Part shown: positions 21,001-30,000 of the stretch, piece by piece
Numbering within the stretch: position 1 is the stretch's first letter
How the letters are laid out: every line of letters starts with the position of its first letter
Origin: Bacteroidales bacterium
Lineage (GTDB): Bacteria; Bacteroidota; Bacteroidia; Bacteroidales; CAIWKO01
Assembly (NCBI GenBank): GCA_035389045.1
Contig: DAOORA010000010.1
Coordinates: 62,001-93,076, forward strand
DNA: 31,076 bases
Direction of reading: 5' to 3'
Made by a program: the position numbers

Positions 21001-24000
21001 CTTAAAAATAATTTATTTAAGTAATTATTTAATAACGTGAAGCACAATGTTATCCTGTTTTTTGTTTTTATCAGTTTAACGGGTACTATTTTAAATGCCC
21101 GGTTGCTGGAAGCTTATGTGATCTCTTCCGGAGGTTACTATACTTCGGCTGCCGGTTCTTTTTGTGTTACGCTGGCCGAAACGACCATGGTGCAGACCTT
21201 GTCATCCATGGGTAATTTTCTGACACAGGGATTTCAACAACCCGACGAATGGTATTCATCCATCCAGGAGGAGCCTGTACAGGGAAACTTTGTTGTTTAT
21301 CCCGATCCTAACTATGGTAATATTATTGTAACTGTGCAATCCAAAGAAAATGGCGAGGCACAACTAAGTATTTATGATGTGCTGGGGCAAAAGGAATTTT
21401 CCATACAAAAGACCATTGTCACCGCAGCTAACCTTGAATATATAGATATTCGTGGTTATTCCATGGGTATTTATTTTCTCTTGTGCTAATAGGTTGATGA
21501 AAACGGCAAAATGAATTTAAAGTCCTGAAAATCAACACAACTAATTAAATAAAAAAGCAAACTATGAGAACAACAATTGCCAAAATCATTTTTTCAGTAT
21601 CTTTTTTATTGATTACGGGCTTTTCATTGGCTCAGGTGCCGCATGCATTTAATTATCAGGCTGTTGCCCGCGATGTGTCTGGAAATGTGCTGCCTGACAA
21701 GATACTGGGCATCAGGGTTTCACTGCACCTGGGAACAGCGATGGGAGCCGTAGTTTATTCGGAAACATTTACTGCGATCACTAATGCCTATGGCCTGTTT
21801 ACCTTGGATATAGGGCTTGGAACCACAATTTCTGGGCAATTTGATACGATAGCCTGGGGTAAAAATCACTATTACATGCAGGTGGAAATGGATCCTACAG
21901 GCGGTGCAACATACATTGATATGGGAACCAGCCAGTTGCTGAGTGTTCCCTATGCCATGTATGCTGAAAACTCCGCATGGAAAAGAAATGGGTCAAATAT
22001 CTTTTATGATGCTGGAAATGTTGGGGTTGGATTAGCTGACCCCAGCCAAAAGCTGCATATAAAAGGAACTTTCAGGGTTGATGATCCAAATCCAATGATC
22101 CAATTAATAGACACTACTGCTTTTAAGGGTTATGTTCAGTCCTATCATAACGATATGATTTTTGCCAATGCCAATGATACCGGCAGTATTGAATTTTGGA
22201 CCAACTATGCTGAAAAAATGAAAATTAAAGCCAATGGTAACGTGGGCATAGGAACCACCAACCCTGCCAATAAATTTGAAGTTATCAATTCGGAAAGCGC
22301 TAAATTCAGGGTGGGAACAATTACTTCGCTCGGAAAAGGCTTTGGCCAGGAATATGACTCAATCACTCCAGGTTATTTTATTGCACATGGAGGCGAATAC
22401 TGGCATTTTTGTTATGCGGACACTCCCGATTCTGCCTATACAAGAAAAGTGACCCTTGACGGCAGGGGCAATATGTTCCGTCCATCCATCAATAATGTTA
22501 TCAGTCTTGGAAATCTTTCATATAAATGGGCTGCTGTTTATGCCGTAAACGGAACTATTCAAACTTCAGATTTACGATATAAGGACAATATATCTGATAT
22601 TCAGTACGGGCTTGATGAAGTGTTGAAACTTCGCCCGGTTTCCTACAGGTGGAAAGACGATAACCTTAACATTGGAACCGGAAAAAATCTCGGTTTTATC
22701 GCCCAGGAACTGGAAACCATTGTTCCTGAGGTAGTTGTACATAAGCAGACAGAAATTGATAATGAAACCAACCATCCTGCCGGCGAATACCCTGACACTT
22801 ATGGCGTGAAATACAGTGAACTTATTCCGGTGCTGGTAAAAGCCATACAGGAGCAACAAACCCAGTTTGTAAAAGCCATACAGGAACAGCAAACCCAGAT
22901 AGAACAATTAAAACAGGAAATAAAAATATTGAAAGGGCAATGACAATGCCCGTAAGCCTTGCAATTTTCAATAATATAACCCGTTGATGATGACTGTCCG
23001 GCAAAGGGTTGTCTTATTAATAATACCCTGGAATTCACTCCTGGTTTTTTTAATGAAATTTTAATAATAAAATATTTTTTTATTTATTTAATCACTGTTG
23101 TCCGGTAAAAATATTTTAAATATGCTGAATAGCTTTATTTTCAGAACATTTACAACATATCGCCACCTACGGGGCTTTATTTTTCATTGTAATGTTTTTT
23201 CTACCAATATGCCGCCTCTAACGAGGCTAAAAAAGTTCCAAAGGTCTATAATATTATCATAATGAATAATTTGCCAACTTATAAAAGCGCCGTAGGTTCG
23301 AAATATTACATAGTTAATAAATTAACCGGACAATAATGTTATTTAACAAATTTATTGTTTTTATAAACATAAATGATTAAATTTGCTTTATTAATCGTAC
23401 AATTTTTAAATTAATCAAACCTTATGAAACGAAAATTTATGCTACTGTTCATTTCCGGAGTTATGATAGTGTTTCTTTCTCATGCACAGTCGCTGACACC
23501 TTTTGTGATCTCTTCATCCGGTGGTTATTATTCTTCGGCTGCCGGTTCTCTATCGGCTACAGTGGCCGAAATGACCATGGTGCAGACTTTATCTTCCATG
23601 GGTAATTTTCTGACACAGGGATTTCAGCAACCCGGCGAATGGTATGTATCCATCCCGGAGGAGCCGGTGCAGGGCAACCTGTCCGTTTATCCCAATCCCA
23701 GTTATGGTAAATTCAATGTAACGGTGCAATCCAAAGAAAAAGGGGAGGCAGAGCTCAGCATTTATGATGTACTGGGGCAAAAAACCTGTTCCAGCCGTAT
23801 GCACATTGTACCCGGCGCTAACACTGAGTATGTGGATATCCGTGGTTATTCCATGGGCATATATTTACTCGAATATCTTTACACCGGAGAAAACGGTAAA
23901 AAGGAATCTAAAGTTCTGAAAATCAATGTAATCAATTAATCATATAAATAAAATGCCATGAAAACAACCGTTACCAAAATCATTTGTTCATTGATCTTTT

Positions 24001-27000: not shown

Positions 27001-30000
27001 TTCAATTTATAACATATAAACCATAAAATTTTTTAAACCATGAAATCACCATTTATAAAGATCATCTTTTCATTAACCTTTTTATTGATCACGTGCTATA
27101 CTTTCGCCCAGGCGCCGCAGGCATTTAATTACCAGGCTGTTGCCCGCGATGTCTCGGGAAACGTGCTGCCTGACCAGATACTGGGGATTAAGGTTTCACT
27201 GCACATGGGAACAGCAACAGGTGCGGTAGTTTATTCGGAAACTTTTACACCGACGTCAAATTCCTTTGGACTGTTTACCATAGGCATAGGTCTTGGAACT
27301 GCTATTTCCGGGCAGTTTGATACGATTTCCTGGGGCAAAAATCACTATTATATGCAGGTGGAAATGGATCCTGCGGGCGGCGCGACCTATGTTGATATGG
27401 GAACCAGTCAGTTATTGAGTGTGCCTTATGCAATGTATGCAGCTCATACAGAGGGAATTGGTTTTTCCGCATATAGGAGTGCAACGACTCAATTAATTGC
27501 TGCAGGTTCATACACCGAAATTGTTTTTAATTCAGAGAATTATGATGATGGTAATGGCTATAACCCAACTAATGGTTATTATACCGCACCTTCAGCCGGA
27601 GTGTATCATTTTGATGCATCTGCCCGGCTAACCGGAACGGCAACGGAAGGGCAGACAACTGTTATTGTTCTTGTTGTCAATGGAAATCAAAAAAGGATGA
27701 AAAGGATGTTATCCGAAACAGATGCTTTTAGTATAGATGTTTCTGCTGATCTTAAGTTAAATGCCGGAGACATAGTGAATGTTGAAATATATAGCCAAAC
27801 AGAAACGTCTGCTATGTATATCAATAATATTTGTACATTTTTCTCAGGGCATAAGGTTTATTGATGTTGAGGAAAAATATCTTTTCTTTTTCAGGTATGC
27901 GTATTATAGCAGAAAGCACAGCGGCGAAAACGGAAAATAGGAATCTAAAGTGTTGAAAATTAATGGAATAATTAATCATAAAAAAATATAACATGAAAAC
28001 AACGGTTACCAAAATCATTTTCTCATTGATCTTTTTAGTTGTCATGGGCTATTCTTTTGCCCAGGCGCCCCAGGCATTCAATTACCAGGCCGTTGCCCGC
28101 GATATTTCGGGAAATGTATTGCCCAACCAGCTTTTGGGTATCAGGGTTTCACTGCATATGGGAACAGCCACGGGAACCGTAGTTTATTCGGAAACCTTTA
28201 CTCCGACCACTAATCCCTATGGTTTATTTACCCTAAGCATAGGTATAGGAACCTCTGTCTCCGGGCAATTTGATACGATTGCATGGGGTAAGAATCAATA
28301 TTACATGCAGGTGGAAATGGATCCTGCGGGCGGAGTGACGTATACTGATATGGGTACCAGTCAGTTGCTTTCTGTTCCTTATGCTATGTATGCTGAGAGA
28401 ACCAAAGCATTGCCTCCGGGTACTTCTGGACAAACTCTCGCTCATGATGCCTCAGGATGGGTAGCCAGTGATTTTCTTGTTAATACCGGAGTCCGCATAG
28501 GTATTGGAACCACCACACCGGGATTCTTATGTGAGATGAAATCCTCTCAGTCCTATTTACATATTAACTCCACAGGAACTTTCGGAGGTATTTTACTGAA
28601 CAGGCCTGATACGAATTCATATATGAGACTGATGTATCGCACTGATGATAGTAATAAATGGTATGTAGGCCTGCTGGGGGCCAAAGATGGTTATTCTGTT
28701 TCGAGAGCAAACAGCGATGATGGTACATTTCATATAAATCATAATAATGGTTATGTAGGAATCGGAACAATTGCGCCAACCAATATCTTTGAAGTAGTAA
28801 CCGGAACTTCAGGAAGCAAATTCCGTGTAGGCTCAGTCACATATGGCTCTGGTTTTGGCCAGGATTTTAACAGCAGTAATGCCTCATATTTTCTGGCTAA
28901 TGGCGGCTCTTACTGGCATTTTTGCTATGCGGCAACTCCTGCAGATGCATATACAAGAATAGTGTCCATTGATGGCGGAGGAAATGTTTTCCGTCCTTCT
29001 GCAAACAATACAGTAAGCTTAGGAAACTCAGGTTATAAATGGACCGCTGTATGGGCAGTGAACGGAACCATACAGACTTCTGACCTGCGTTATAAAACCG
29101 ATATCGCTGACATACCTTACGGGCTTAAAGAAGTTTTGAAACTTCGCCCTGTTTCTTATAGCTGGAAAAATGAAAAGCTGAATACCGGTACAGGCAAAAA
29201 TCTTGGCTTTATTGCCCAGGAAATGGAAACATTGGTGCCTGATGTTGTGGTTCATACTCAGATAGAAATTGACAAAGAAACCGATCAGCCCGGAAGTGAG
29301 TATCCGGATGCCTACGGCGTGAAATACAGCGAGCTTATTCCTGTGCTGGTAAAAGCTATTCAGGAGCAACAAGCTCAGATTGAACTGCTGAAGCAGGAAA
29401 TTAAAACCCTGAAAGAAAAATAGTTTTATACTGACGTGATGAGCATTATGGAATGATGCTCACCGGCATAATGGTTATATAACAGAATACGGCGGATATT
29501 GCGGGGGGCGTTTCCACGGTAAAGTGCTACCGGAGGGATGTGCTGCTGTTTTAATATAGTGGAAGCCAGCCAGAGCCCGAAAGCAGAAGCTGTATAATAC
29601 TCTCCGCAAAAATGCTTGAAAGCGGCAACAGCTTGTTTATCAAATATCTCGTTAATTACTGAATGATACCACTTGTCAGTTGCATCGTCGCCGTTAAGTC
29701 CTGCAACAAAAAGGTCTATATCGGTGGCTGATAAATTATTATCTTTCAGTATGTTATTGATTGTATCATGGATGCAGGTAATTGATTTGGGTTTGTATAA
29801 TGTCTTTAAACAATCCAGGCGGGCATAGGAATTGGGACGTATGTCTTTTGTCAGCGTAAAATAAACAGAACCCTCACCTGGAATGGTGCCCTTTCCGGGA
29901 TTTTTCAGCATGTCAAGATGGTTTTCAGCTTGTTGCCGCCACAAACCCAACAGGCCGGAAATATTATAATGATTTTCAGAGATTTCGTCTATTCCGCCCA

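What a model noticed while it worked through the whole genome (the two positions that open the first line are those of the whole stretch)
21037..29423. Tail-fibre-like surface proteins that lack a T9SS signal are each preceded by a small adaptor protein that is little mor [...]
Nineteen fibre-like proteins of this genome with signal peptides (phage tail-fibre/endosialidase-type S74 auto-chaperone ends, YadA-head repeats, C1q or Lcl_C heads) share a ~115-residue N-terminal domain (..FNYQAV(A/V)RD..) and none has a T9SS sorting domain. Their operons start with a small protein made of a signal peptide, a conserved ~50-residue segment (..FVISS.GGYY..LTQGFQQP) and a type A CTD: three 150-171-aa forms in C10:83037-91423 (g00836, g00838, g00841, followed by fibres g00837, g00839, g00842-844) and four ~520-aa forms that carry the long dockerin-cohesin tail (g00732, g00293, g01459, g00398). 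The pair mini-CTD gene then fibre gene recurs across Bacteroidota, so the small prot [...]
Evidence so far: blastp with the fibre N-domain: 19 proteins, 0 of 19 with Por_Secre_tail or CHU_C; blastp with the adaptor segment: 7 proteins, 6 of 7 directly upstream (one with a 39-aa call between) on the same strand of a fibre gene, the 7th at a contig end; two more small CTD-type genes (g01016, g02251) also sit upstream of fibres g01017, g02250. In 7 other Bacteroidota genomes (12 of 301 sampled, this one included, hold the mini-CTD family) 9 of 10 full-length mini-CTD genes are followed within about 150 bp on the same strand by a gene opening with the fibre N-domain (30-52% identity, E 4e-7 to 6e-37). 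At least 342 proteins of about 171 aa in public data, named at most 'T9SS type A sorting domain-conta [...]
(Added by a program. Inside this text positions count along the whole contig: contig position 62,001 is position 1 of the stretch shown here. "Call 12" and the like, gene names such as g00115 and contig names such as C1 are that model's own, and its searches are not shown. The text may have been shortened before it was handed on; [...] marks where a part breaks off. The agent that wrote the report below was given it as the finding of a first reader that could run no searches.)

Follow-up and report, generated by a model that had tools for sequence, protein, structure and literature searches.

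The report
Mini T9SS-tail gene paired with fibres
Across Bacteroidota, genes for tail-fibre-like surface fibres that lack a secretion signal are usually preceded by a tiny gene that is little more than such a signal plus a very conserved 50-residue stub, which suggests, but does not prove, that the stub carries or anchors the fibres.

Summary
The window holds three mini genes (signal peptide, about 50-residue conserved segment, T9SS type A tail). Each is followed by one to three fibre genes that share a 115-residue N-domain and have no T9SS tail. Mini gene 1 is cut short by a stop codon, and a fourth survives only as a 68-nt remnant.

In 77 loci from other Bacteroidota, 59 of 81 mini genes are followed within 150 nt by a fibre gene. 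In 19 of 20 fibre loci from genomes where my profile found no mini gene, a divergent one sits directly upstream. None of 19 own-genome, 87 locus and 120 database fibres has a T9SS tail. The fibre N-domain is a remote relative of the Bdellovibrio MAT fibre N-domain, whose surface partner is unknown.

The conserved segment is the best-conserved part of the mini protein yet folds poorly alone. Three fibre N-domain classes in this genome each go with their own mini-gene class.

My best reading (about 0.45) is a two-gene display module: the mini protein supplies the T9SS address and cell-surface anchor in trans. Binding is inferred only.

The parts
20954..21035 (+). Promoter-like AT-rich leader of cassette 1. 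It is duplicated at 25685-25766 before cassette 3 and contains TATATTTG, which fits the Bacteroidota -7 motif TAnnTTTG (motif recalled, not from a call).
   Evidence: families D8 and D9: 83% identical copies; the copy includes a duplicated piece of the 3' end of the upstream S9 peptidase gene
21037..21489 (+). Mini-CTD gene 1 (150 aa). It has the conserved N-segment, but the T9SS tail is truncated by TAA/TAG stops and the AQ signal-peptidase motif is lost. Probably decayed.
21564..22943 (+). Fibre 1 (459 aa): signal peptide, shared N-domain (residues about 24-140), stalk, S74 intramolecular chaperone end.
23424..23939 (+). Mini-CTD gene 2 (171 aa, intact): signal peptide 1-21, N-segment 22-70, linker 71-87, type A CTD 88-171.
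23958..25184 (+). Fibre 2 (408 aa): N-domain plus S74 end. It starts 19 nt after mini gene 2.
25767..26282 (+). Mini-CTD gene 3 (171 aa, intact; 85% identical to gene 2).
26301..27026 (+). Fibre 3 (241 aa): N-domain plus a small head with no Pfam family.
27040..27864 (+). Fibre 4 (274 aa): N-domain plus C1q head.
27918..27985 (+). Remnant of the last about 68 nt of a fourth mini-CTD gene (76% identical to the 3' end of gene 3). The rest of that gene is deleted.
27993..29423 (+). Fibre 5 (476 aa): N-domain plus S74 end. Its C-terminal part is related to that of fibre 1.

Best explanation
This is a two-gene surface-display module of T9SS-bearing Bacteroidota.

The fibre genes encode trimeric adhesin-like fibres with a constant Ig-like N-domain and exchangeable stalks and tips (S74, C1q, collagen, YadA-head, Lcl_C). 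They are the Bacteroidota counterparts of Bdellovibrio MAT fibres. They have a Sec signal peptide but no T9SS sorting domain and no membrane anchor.

The small upstream gene encodes a Sec signal peptide, a 50-residue segment, a short variable linker and a type A CTD.

Proposed mechanism:
1. Both proteins enter the periplasm through Sec.
2. The 50-residue segment, which is not confidently folded on its own, binds the fibre's constant N-domain.
3. The CTD takes the complex to the SprA translocon.
4. PorU removes the CTD and links the stub to the cell surface, so the fibre ends up tethered by its N-domain with the variable tip pointing outwards.

One mini protein serves all fibres of its N-domain class, in cis or in trans.

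Shown here: the domain make-up of both proteins, the conserved gene order, the class-wise pairing, the absence of a CTD on the fibres, and the presence of SprA and PorU.

Inferred: binding, co-export and anchoring.
For: 1. Synteny across the phylum.
- 59 of 81 mini genes with at least 600 nt of room downstream are followed within 150 nt on the same strand by a gene opening with the fibre N-domain. As a control, a fibre gene ends just upstream of only 7 of 78.
- I picked 20 fibre loci from genomes with no N-segment hit (12 from family f32, 8 from 6 other families). In 19 of them the gene directly upstream is a 157-202-aa protein with a signal peptide, a divergent N-segment and Por_Secre_tail (E 3e-6 to 8e-14).

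2. The fibres never carry the signal themselves. None of 19 in this genome, none of 87 in the loci and none of the best 120 of at least 7657 database relatives has one.

3. The mini protein's only cargo is the 50-residue segment.
- That segment is its best-conserved part: majority-residue fraction 0.80, against 0.59 for the CTD and 0.47 for the linker.
- It has pLDDT under 50 alone, while the CTD has about 90.
- Its profile finds 6071 cluster representatives. In the 150 listed, the segment lies at about residues 20-70 in most, and most of these proteins are 155-180 aa long.

4. Pairing within this genome. The 19 fibre N-domains form four clusters. Cluster 1 goes with the short mini genes, cluster 3 with the long forms and cluster 4 with the C13 form. 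Cluster 2 (three C60 fibres) has none found.

5. One mini gene heads operons of up to three fibres with different tips. Mini genes decay or are deleted where sister copies exist. This fits recognition of the constant N-domain and action in trans.

6. Phyletic pattern. All 35 genomes with the N-segment have the fibre N-domain. All 126 fibre-positive genomes have SprA. None of the 89 SprA-negative genomes has either.

7. This genome has SprA (2707 bits) and two PorU genes.

8. All 62 fibre N-domains tested hit NCBIfam Bdello_MAT_N. Caulton et al. 2024 (PMC10769870, passages read) state that the MAT N-domain 'would presumably tightly bind a surface element' still to be identified.

9. Mini-gene and fibre pieces occur with no mismatches in contigs of three activated-sludge RNA libraries.
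Against: - No result shows binding.
- Pairwise distances of the fibre N-domain correlate no better with the N-segment (r 0.49) than with the CTD of the same mini protein (r 0.51). The co-variation seen is therefore what shared history gives.
- 18 of 81 mini genes have no fibre gene in the 6 kb held downstream.
- One fibre class and two further single fibres in this genome, and 1 of the 20 sampled loci, have no mini gene nearby.
- 87 of the 89 SprA-negative genomes belong to one family, so the T9SS association is roughly one independent contrast.
- Bdellovibrio has related fibres but no T9SS (recalled), so the N-domain does not need a T9SS partner as such.
- The RNA contigs are at depth 2-6, none bridges a mini-gene/fibre junction, and DNA carry-over cannot be excluded.
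- Class-wise pairing could come from duplication of whole cassettes alone.
Confidence: 0.45

Rival explanations
1. The two are co-expressed but independent. The mini protein is a small T9SS-secreted surface peptide with a job of its own, such as a spacer, a surface coat or a signal peptide. It shares a promoter with the fibres but does not touch them, and the fibres cross the outer membrane by another route.
For: Only gene order links the two. Orphan mini genes exist (18 of 81). So do fibres without a nearby mini gene. The distance correlations show shared history only.
Against: It does not explain why such a small protein stays glued to fibre genes across several classes of the phylum. It does not explain why its classes track the fibre N-domain classes, or why its only cargo is a highly conserved segment that does not fold confidently alone. 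No other export route for the fibres is evident: no CTD and no YadA-type anchor appear in the Pfam scans.
Confidence: 0.2
2. The mini protein is an assembly helper. Its N-segment transiently binds or primes the fibre N-domain in the periplasm, in the way of a tail-fibre assembly factor or a donated strand, and the T9SS then removes the helper. The fibre itself is exported and anchored by other means.
For: It rests on the same synteny and class pairing. The fibres have phage-type S74 ends, and such fibres often need helpers (general knowledge, recalled). The N-segment is not confidently folded alone.
Against: The fibre N-domain folds confidently by itself (pLDDT about 95). A helper has no obvious need for a secretion and anchoring tail that is kept in 86 of 87 copies.
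Confidence: 0.15
3. The mini protein is a PorA-like signalling protein. It is a nearly cargo-less CTD protein that reports T9SS activity to a regulator and so couples fibre expression to secretion capacity.
For: PorA of Porphyromonas gingivalis is a small CTD protein that acts on the PorXY-SigP pathway (PMC7712824 and PMC12152298; titles and starts of abstracts seen).
Against: A signalling role does not predict several mini-gene classes per genome that each track a fibre N-domain class, or phylum-wide adjacency to one cargo family. No regulator gene is conserved beside the pair in the loci I inspected.
Confidence: 0.05
4. The module is prophage or tailocin cargo: phage tail fibres with a phage accessory gene.
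For: S74 chaperone ends, and the 'tail fiber domain-containing protein' names that sources give.
Against: The neighbours are chromosomal housekeeping genes, including RecA, an S9 peptidase and glycogen synthase. No relative of the mini gene was found in 2.9 million viral contigs. Both proteins have Sec signal peptides, and the mini protein has a T9SS tail.
Confidence: 0.03

Closest known systems
Bdellovibrio bacteriovorus MAT (mosaic adhesive trimer) fibres (Caulton et al. 2024, PMC10769870; passages read)
   Same: Both have a signal peptide followed directly by a conserved beta-rich N-domain of about 115-130 aa, then chimeric stalks and exchangeable tips with or without an S74 end. Both occur as many paralogues per genome. 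All 62 N-domains tested here hit the NCBIfam MAT N-domain model.
   Different: The hits stay below the family cut-off: 19.6-32 bits for the own-genome fibres against 60. They cover mainly the first half of the model. The host phylum is different. The paper names no partner gene for the N-domain, whereas here a dedicated upstream gene with a T9SS tail is conserved.
Classical T9SS type A cargo (for example gingipains), with the CTD in cis, cleaved by PorU and attached to anionic LPS
   Same: The mini protein has a signal peptide and a Por_Secre_tail/TIGR04183 domain above cut-off. The genome has SprA and PorU.
   Different: Its passenger is only about 50 residues plus a linker. The large surface protein is encoded separately and has no CTD. 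A CTD acting in trans for another protein appears neither in the passages I read of the 2023 T9SS effector review (PMC10202324) nor in my literature searches.
Type B CTD cargo with cognate PorP/SprF-like outer-membrane partners (for example SprB with SprF)
   Same: A secreted adhesin gene is clustered with a dedicated small partner gene needed for its export or anchoring (review PMC10202324, passages read).
   Different: There the adhesin carries the CTD and the partner is a beta-barrel. Here the adhesin has no CTD and the partner is a soluble CTD protein.
Hitchhiker (piggyback) export, as in the Tat pathway and peroxisomal import
   Same: A signal-less folded protein rides on a partner that bears the signal (review PMC9251779, passages read). 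The T9SS also moves folded proteins.
   Different: That review does not describe this for the T9SS. Here it is a proposal only.
Trimeric autotransporter adhesins (YadA family)
   Same: Several fibres of this genome carry many YadA_head repeats.
   Different: No YadA-type membrane anchor domain appears in any Pfam scan. The constant part is N-terminal, not C-terminal.
PorA of P. gingivalis (small CTD protein, PorXY ligand)
   Same: A very small protein that is mostly a T9SS CTD (titles and starts of abstracts only).
   Different: Sequence relatedness was not tested. PorA is a regulator-linked single gene and is not paired with fibre genes.

Membership tests
T9SS type A CTD protein (the mini protein) | C-terminal Por_Secre_tail / TIGR04183 domain above the curated cut-off | tested here: met
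   Pfam 34.5, 43.6 and 45.9 bits against 27. TIGR04183 31.7, 39.4 and 43.2 bits against 23. Copy 1 lacks the last about 15 model positions.
T9SS type A CTD protein (the mini protein) | N-terminal Sec signal peptide | tested here: inconclusive
   No signal-peptide predictor was available. The sequence shows a K-rich start, a hydrophobic helix (residues 2-19 in the model) and the A-Q motif before the conserved mature end.
T9SS type A CTD protein (the mini protein) | Host genome encodes the T9SS translocon and the CTD sortase | tested here: met
   SprA 2707 bits. Two PorU genes at 1341 and 1148 bits.
T9SS type A CTD protein (the mini protein) | T9SS-dependent secretion, CTD cleavage and surface attachment | not testable with these tools
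   Needs mutants and proteomics.
Bdellovibrio MAT fibre family (the fibres) | N-domain matches NF053851 (Bdello_MAT_N) above its cut-off of 60 bits | tested here: not met
   18 of 19 own-genome fibres hit at 19.6-32 bits. All 62 aligned N-domains hit at E 0.01 or better, best 1.8e-13. None of the 14 control genomes hit. The fibres are remote relatives, not members by the curated rule.
Bdellovibrio MAT fibre family (the fibres) | Conserved beta-rich domain directly after the signal peptide, with variable C-terminal tips, with or without S74 | tested here: met
Bdellovibrio MAT fibre family (the fibres) | Trimeric fibre on the cell surface | not testable with these tools
   Only implied by the S74, C1q, collagen and YadA-head modules.
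Trimeric autotransporter adhesin | C-terminal YadA-type beta-barrel membrane anchor | tested here: not met
   No anchor family appears in the Pfam scans of the 19 fibres at E 0.1 or better (window) and 0.01 or better (other loci).
Phage tail fibre in a prophage | Phage structural genes around it; relatives on viral contigs | tested here: not met
   Neighbours are RecA, an S9 peptidase, a TPR protein and a ketoacyl-synthase-like gene. The mini gene has no relative in viral contigs. The fibres themselves were not searched in viral contigs.

The most novel reading that the evidence does not exclude
The T9SS has a trans-signal mode. A dedicated mini protein of about 170 aa lends its type A CTD to a large CTD-less trimeric fibre by binding the fibre's constant N-domain. 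It co-translocates with the fibre through SprA and then becomes the fibre's covalent cell-surface tether. If so, the surface partner that the MAT fibre N-domain is presumed to bind, unidentified since 2024, would have its first named candidate. Thousands of 'hypothetical' mini-CTD proteins (6071 cluster representatives) would also gain a function.
Probability: 0.3. Interest if true: 0.85.

Novelty: new variant of a known kind. Interest (0 to 1): 0.72.

Why it matters
All described T9SS cargo carries its sorting domain in cis. A carrier that supplies it in trans would be a new secretion logic for a major phylum. It would explain how a very large family of tip-swapping adhesin fibres (at least 7657 clusters; present in 126 of 401 sampled Bacteroidota species) reaches and stays on the cell surface. 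It would also give a concrete, testable candidate for the unknown docking partner of the MAT-type N-domain. In practical terms, a 50-residue tag plus CTD could become a tool to display foreign proteins on Bacteroidota.

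Tried and rejected
1. Complex prediction of the fibre N-domain (residues 24-140, 62-row alignment) with the mini protein's segment (residues 22-84, 58 rows) gave 'no answer': score 0.01 against a mark of 0.32, and the controls were not run. The tool states that this is no evidence either way. A 3:3 or 3:1 stoichiometry and the full mini protein were not tried because the cap is one job.

2. Fold searches with the fibre N-domain model. Foldseek against the PDB gave nothing at E 0.001 or better. VIA-align wide gave a best Z of 7.4 among generic Ig-like sandwiches. A T9SS CTD at Z 6.9 and the PorU C-terminal domain at Z 6.7 sit among many unrelated rows, so I read no kinship into them.

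3. A Mantel and partial Mantel test on 84 pairs gave no signal specific to the N-segment. The segment was cut by its position relative to the CTD and may be partly misaligned.

4. A word-based search for proteins over 300 aa carrying this exact N-segment type found none. The tool calls this weak evidence. The genome's own long forms are too divergent to be found that way.

5. ESM Atlas look-alikes of the N-segment were only unnamed Bacteroidota clusters.

6. Literature searches found no paper on a T9SS carrier in trans or on this gene pair. The searches were: T9SS with piggyback, with hitchhik (56), with 'chaperone of endosialidase' (57), with tail fiber and sorting domain (32), and with YadA (67). 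Only the held library was searched. Subscription papers are not covered.

7. RNA contigs do not bridge any mini-gene/fibre junction, so co-transcription is not shown.

9. Whether Bdellovibrio MAT genes have a comparable upstream gene could not be tested, because no route to those genomes was available.

Full report
WHAT IS IN THE WINDOW

The window is the last 31 kb of contig C10 of a 4.46-Mb, 135-contig Bacteroidota genome (96% complete). Between 21037 and 29423 on the + strand lie three small genes and five fibre genes.

The small genes are at 21037-21489, 23424-23939 and 25767-26282. Each encodes a signal peptide, a conserved stretch (..FVISSSGGYY..LTQGFQQP) and a T9SS type A sorting domain. 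Por_Secre_tail and TIGR04183 are both above cut-off.

The fibre genes are at 21564-22943, 23958-25184, 26301-27026, 27040-27864 and 27993-29423. They share a signal peptide and a 115-residue N-domain (..FNYQAVARD..). Three end in S74 chaperone modules, one in a C1q head and one in a head of no known family. None has a T9SS tail. The gaps between a mini gene and its fibre are 75, 19 and 19 nt.

Neighbours are ordinary chromosomal genes: RecA, a TPR protein and an S9 peptidase upstream, and a ketoacyl-synthase-like gene downstream.

Mini gene 1 is cut short by TAA/TAG stops where copies 2 and 3 read on for 21 more residues. The lost coding sequence is still recognisable after the stop, with a 1-nt deletion. 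This copy has also lost the A-Q motif at the signal-peptide end.

A 68-nt remnant of the 3' end of a fourth mini gene lies at 27918-27985, just before the last fibre gene.

The leader of cassette 1, including a piece of the 3' end of the peptidase gene, is duplicated before cassette 3. The locus therefore grew by duplication of whole 'mini gene plus fibre' cassettes, and mini genes then decayed where sister copies remained.

THE REST OF THE GENOME

HMMs made from the window copies find 19 ORFs with the fibre N-domain and 7 with the mini protein's N-segment. The four long forms (518-538 aa) carry the N-segment, an SdrD_B/CarboxypepD_reg-like stretch (below cut-off), Dockerin_1 (just above cut-off) and Por_Secre_tail. 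Cohesin is seen in one only and below cut-off. Three of the long forms directly precede fibre genes, and the fourth is at a contig end.

A divergent 167-aa mini-CTD gene precedes the C13 fibre. None of the 14 fibres outside the window has a T9SS tail. Their tips are S74, YadA_head, Lcl_C and fn3-like.

Mini-CTD genes are rare. Of about 262 CTD ORFs only 6 intact ones are 230 aa or shorter, and 4 of those precede fibres.

The 19 N-domains fall into four clusters (about 45% identity between clusters, 63-95% within). Cluster 1 goes with the short mini genes, cluster 3 with the long forms and cluster 4 with the C13 form. Cluster 2 (three C60 fibres) has no mini gene that I could find.

OTHER GENOMES

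The 171-aa family has 343 clusters at 90% identity, named at most 'T9SS type A sorting domain-containing protein'. A scan of one genome per species found at least 502 encoding stretches. The best 77 loci come from Bacteroidales, Chitinophagales, Sphingobacteriales, Flavobacteriales, Saprospiraceae, Cyclobacteriaceae and others.

In these loci 87 ORFs carry the N-segment, and 81 of them have at least 600 nt downstream.
- 59 of the 81 are followed within 150 nt on the same strand by a gene opening with the fibre N-domain.
- 4 have such a gene further on.
- 18 have none in the DNA held.
- As a control, a fibre gene ends just upstream in only 7 of 78.

86 of the 87 mini ORFs have the tail and none of the 87 fibre ORFs does.

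Among 401 sampled species of the phylum, the N-segment profile hits 35 and the fibre N-domain profile hits 126. All 35 are among the 126.

I then took 20 fibre loci from genomes without an N-segment hit. I chose them from the strong fibre hits: 12 from one family and 8 from six others. In 19 of them the gene directly upstream is a 157-202-aa protein with a signal peptide, a recognisably related but divergent N-segment and Por_Secre_tail. The pairing is therefore close to a rule wherever these fibres occur, including classes of the phylum other than that of this genome.

The N-segment profile finds 6071 representatives of 50%-identity clusters (1333 at E 1e-10 or better). In the 150 listed, the segment lies at about residues 20-70 in most, and most of these proteins are 155-180 aa long.

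The fibre family has at least 7657 clusters. None of the best 120 lists Por_Secre_tail. Their tips are S74, collagen, C1q, YadA_head, Lcl_C and others. No relative of the mini gene was found in 2.9 million viral contigs.

WHAT THE PARTS LOOK LIKE

The fibre N-domain folds confidently alone as an Ig-like beta-sandwich (pLDDT about 95 over residues 30-125). It has no specific structural relative.

It is a remote relative of the N-domain of Bdellovibrio MAT fibres. 18 of 19 own-genome fibres and all 62 aligned N-domains hit NCBIfam NF053851, all of the own-genome ones below the curated cut-off. None of the 14 control genomes hit.

Caulton et al. [quoted passage not shown] They write that it has no structural homologue and 'would presumably tightly bind a surface element' yet to be found (PMC10769870, passages read).

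In the mini protein the tail is modelled well (pLDDT about 90), but residues 22-76 are below 50. That stretch is nevertheless the most conserved part: majority-residue fraction 0.80, against 0.59 for the tail and 0.47 for the linker. Residues G33, G34, T46, E49, M52, T55 and G66-F67-Q68-Q69 are invariant across 59 sequences. High conservation without confident self-folding is what a partner-binding segment would show.

HOW IT PROBABLY WORKS

The genome has SprA and two PorU genes. The mini protein is therefore expected to be exported by the T9SS, to lose its tail and, for type A tails, to be fixed to the surface. This follows from established knowledge of the pathway as summarised in PMC10202324 (passages read).

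Its passenger is only a stub of about 50 residues plus a linker. The fibres are plainly extracellular adhesin-like proteins, yet they have neither a tail nor an anchor.

The most economical reading is that the stub binds the fibres' constant N-domain. It thereby supplies the T9SS address and the tether in trans, and the tip points outwards. This reading explains five things:
- one mini gene heading operons of several fibres with different tips;
- class-wise pairing within one genome;
- decay of redundant mini copies;
- fibre operons without their own mini gene;
- the restriction of both genes to SprA-positive genomes (126 of 312 SprA-positive against 0 of 89 SprA-negative), although 87 of those 89 are one family, so this is roughly one independent contrast.

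The long forms place the same N-segment at the far end of a dockerin-bearing stalk of about 400 residues, which also fits a docking role.

WHAT IS NOT SHOWN

- Binding, co-export and anchoring are all inferred.
- Distance correlations between the N-segment and the fibre N-domain (0.49) equal those between the tail and the fibre N-domain (0.51). They reflect shared history, not specific co-evolution.
- Orphan mini genes (18 of 81) and fibres without a nearby mini gene exist.
- Related fibres work in Bdellovibrio, which has no T9SS (recalled).
- Exact-match contigs from three activated-sludge RNA libraries cover parts of mini gene 3 and of fibres 2 to 5. They are at depth 2-6 and do not bridge a mini-gene/fibre junction, and DNA carry-over is possible.

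COMPARISON AND NOVELTY

Both parts belong to known kinds: a type A CTD protein and MAT-like chimeric fibres. The new element is their obligatory-looking pairing, and the implied use of a T9SS tail in trans.

The nearest analogies are SprB-type adhesins with clustered PorP/SprF partners (there the adhesin itself bears the CTD), hitchhiker export in the Tat system, and PorA as a near-cargo-less CTD protein.

My searches of the held library found no description of this pair or of trans-acting T9SS tails. The passages I read of the 2023 effector review describe only cis signals.

I rate it a new variant of a known kind. Interest is high because the module is phylum-wide, concerns thousands of unnamed proteins, and makes the open question of the MAT N-domain's partner directly testable.

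Noticed in passing
window 684-5546 (-): A 1620-aa protein with RHS repeats (E 7e-118) and DUF6531. It is a polymorphic-toxin-type architecture, and its C-terminal end was not examined.
   Followed up: no
window 6472-7728 and 7869-10283 (+): Two adjacent calcineurin-like phosphoesterases (Metallophos), each with its own T9SS type A tail. They are ordinary cis-CTD cargo and a useful contrast to the fibres.
   Followed up: partly
window 11343-15635 (-): A 1430-aa fusion of a glycogen synthase-like N-terminal half with a carbohydrate phosphorylase-like C-terminal half (Glycogen_syn, DUF3417, Phosphorylase).
   Followed up: no
window 25535-25600 vs 20800-20865: An 83% identical copy of the last 66 nt of the S9 peptidase gene sits in the spacer before cassette 3. 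It shows that the cassette was duplicated together with its upstream flank. A DNA contig of run X1 joins 25600 back to 20900 with 34 other letters between.
   Followed up: partly
window 22909-23195 (spacer between fibre 1 and mini gene 2): Summed contig depth in the DNA run X1 is about 149, against about 30 elsewhere, and several contigs run on into unlike sequence. This is probably a short repeated element shared with other places or organisms.
   Followed up: no
G000:C13:24939-28295 and 28462-31800: Two full-length PorU (T9SS sortase) genes in tandem, at 1341 and 1148 bits.
   Followed up: no
L081:2801-3088 (-) = G000:C9:44801-45088: A 95-aa '23S rRNA-intervening sequence protein' family gene lies between two fibre genes of the C9 operon.
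   Followed up: no
L079:4273-8658 (+) = G000:C3:113273-117658: A 1461-aa protein with an Lcl_C end sits inside a fibre operon but has no detectable fibre N-domain. It may use another N-terminal module.
   Followed up: no
L047:5212-5805: A mini gene split into two ORFs, with the N-segment in one and the CTD in the next. It is probably a frameshifted copy, beside two intact copies in the same locus.
   Followed up: partly
window 20900-29500: Near-identical DNA is held by activated-sludge, anaerobic-digester and wastewater metagenome runs of several studies. The best holder has 0.96 of the sampled words.
   Followed up: partly
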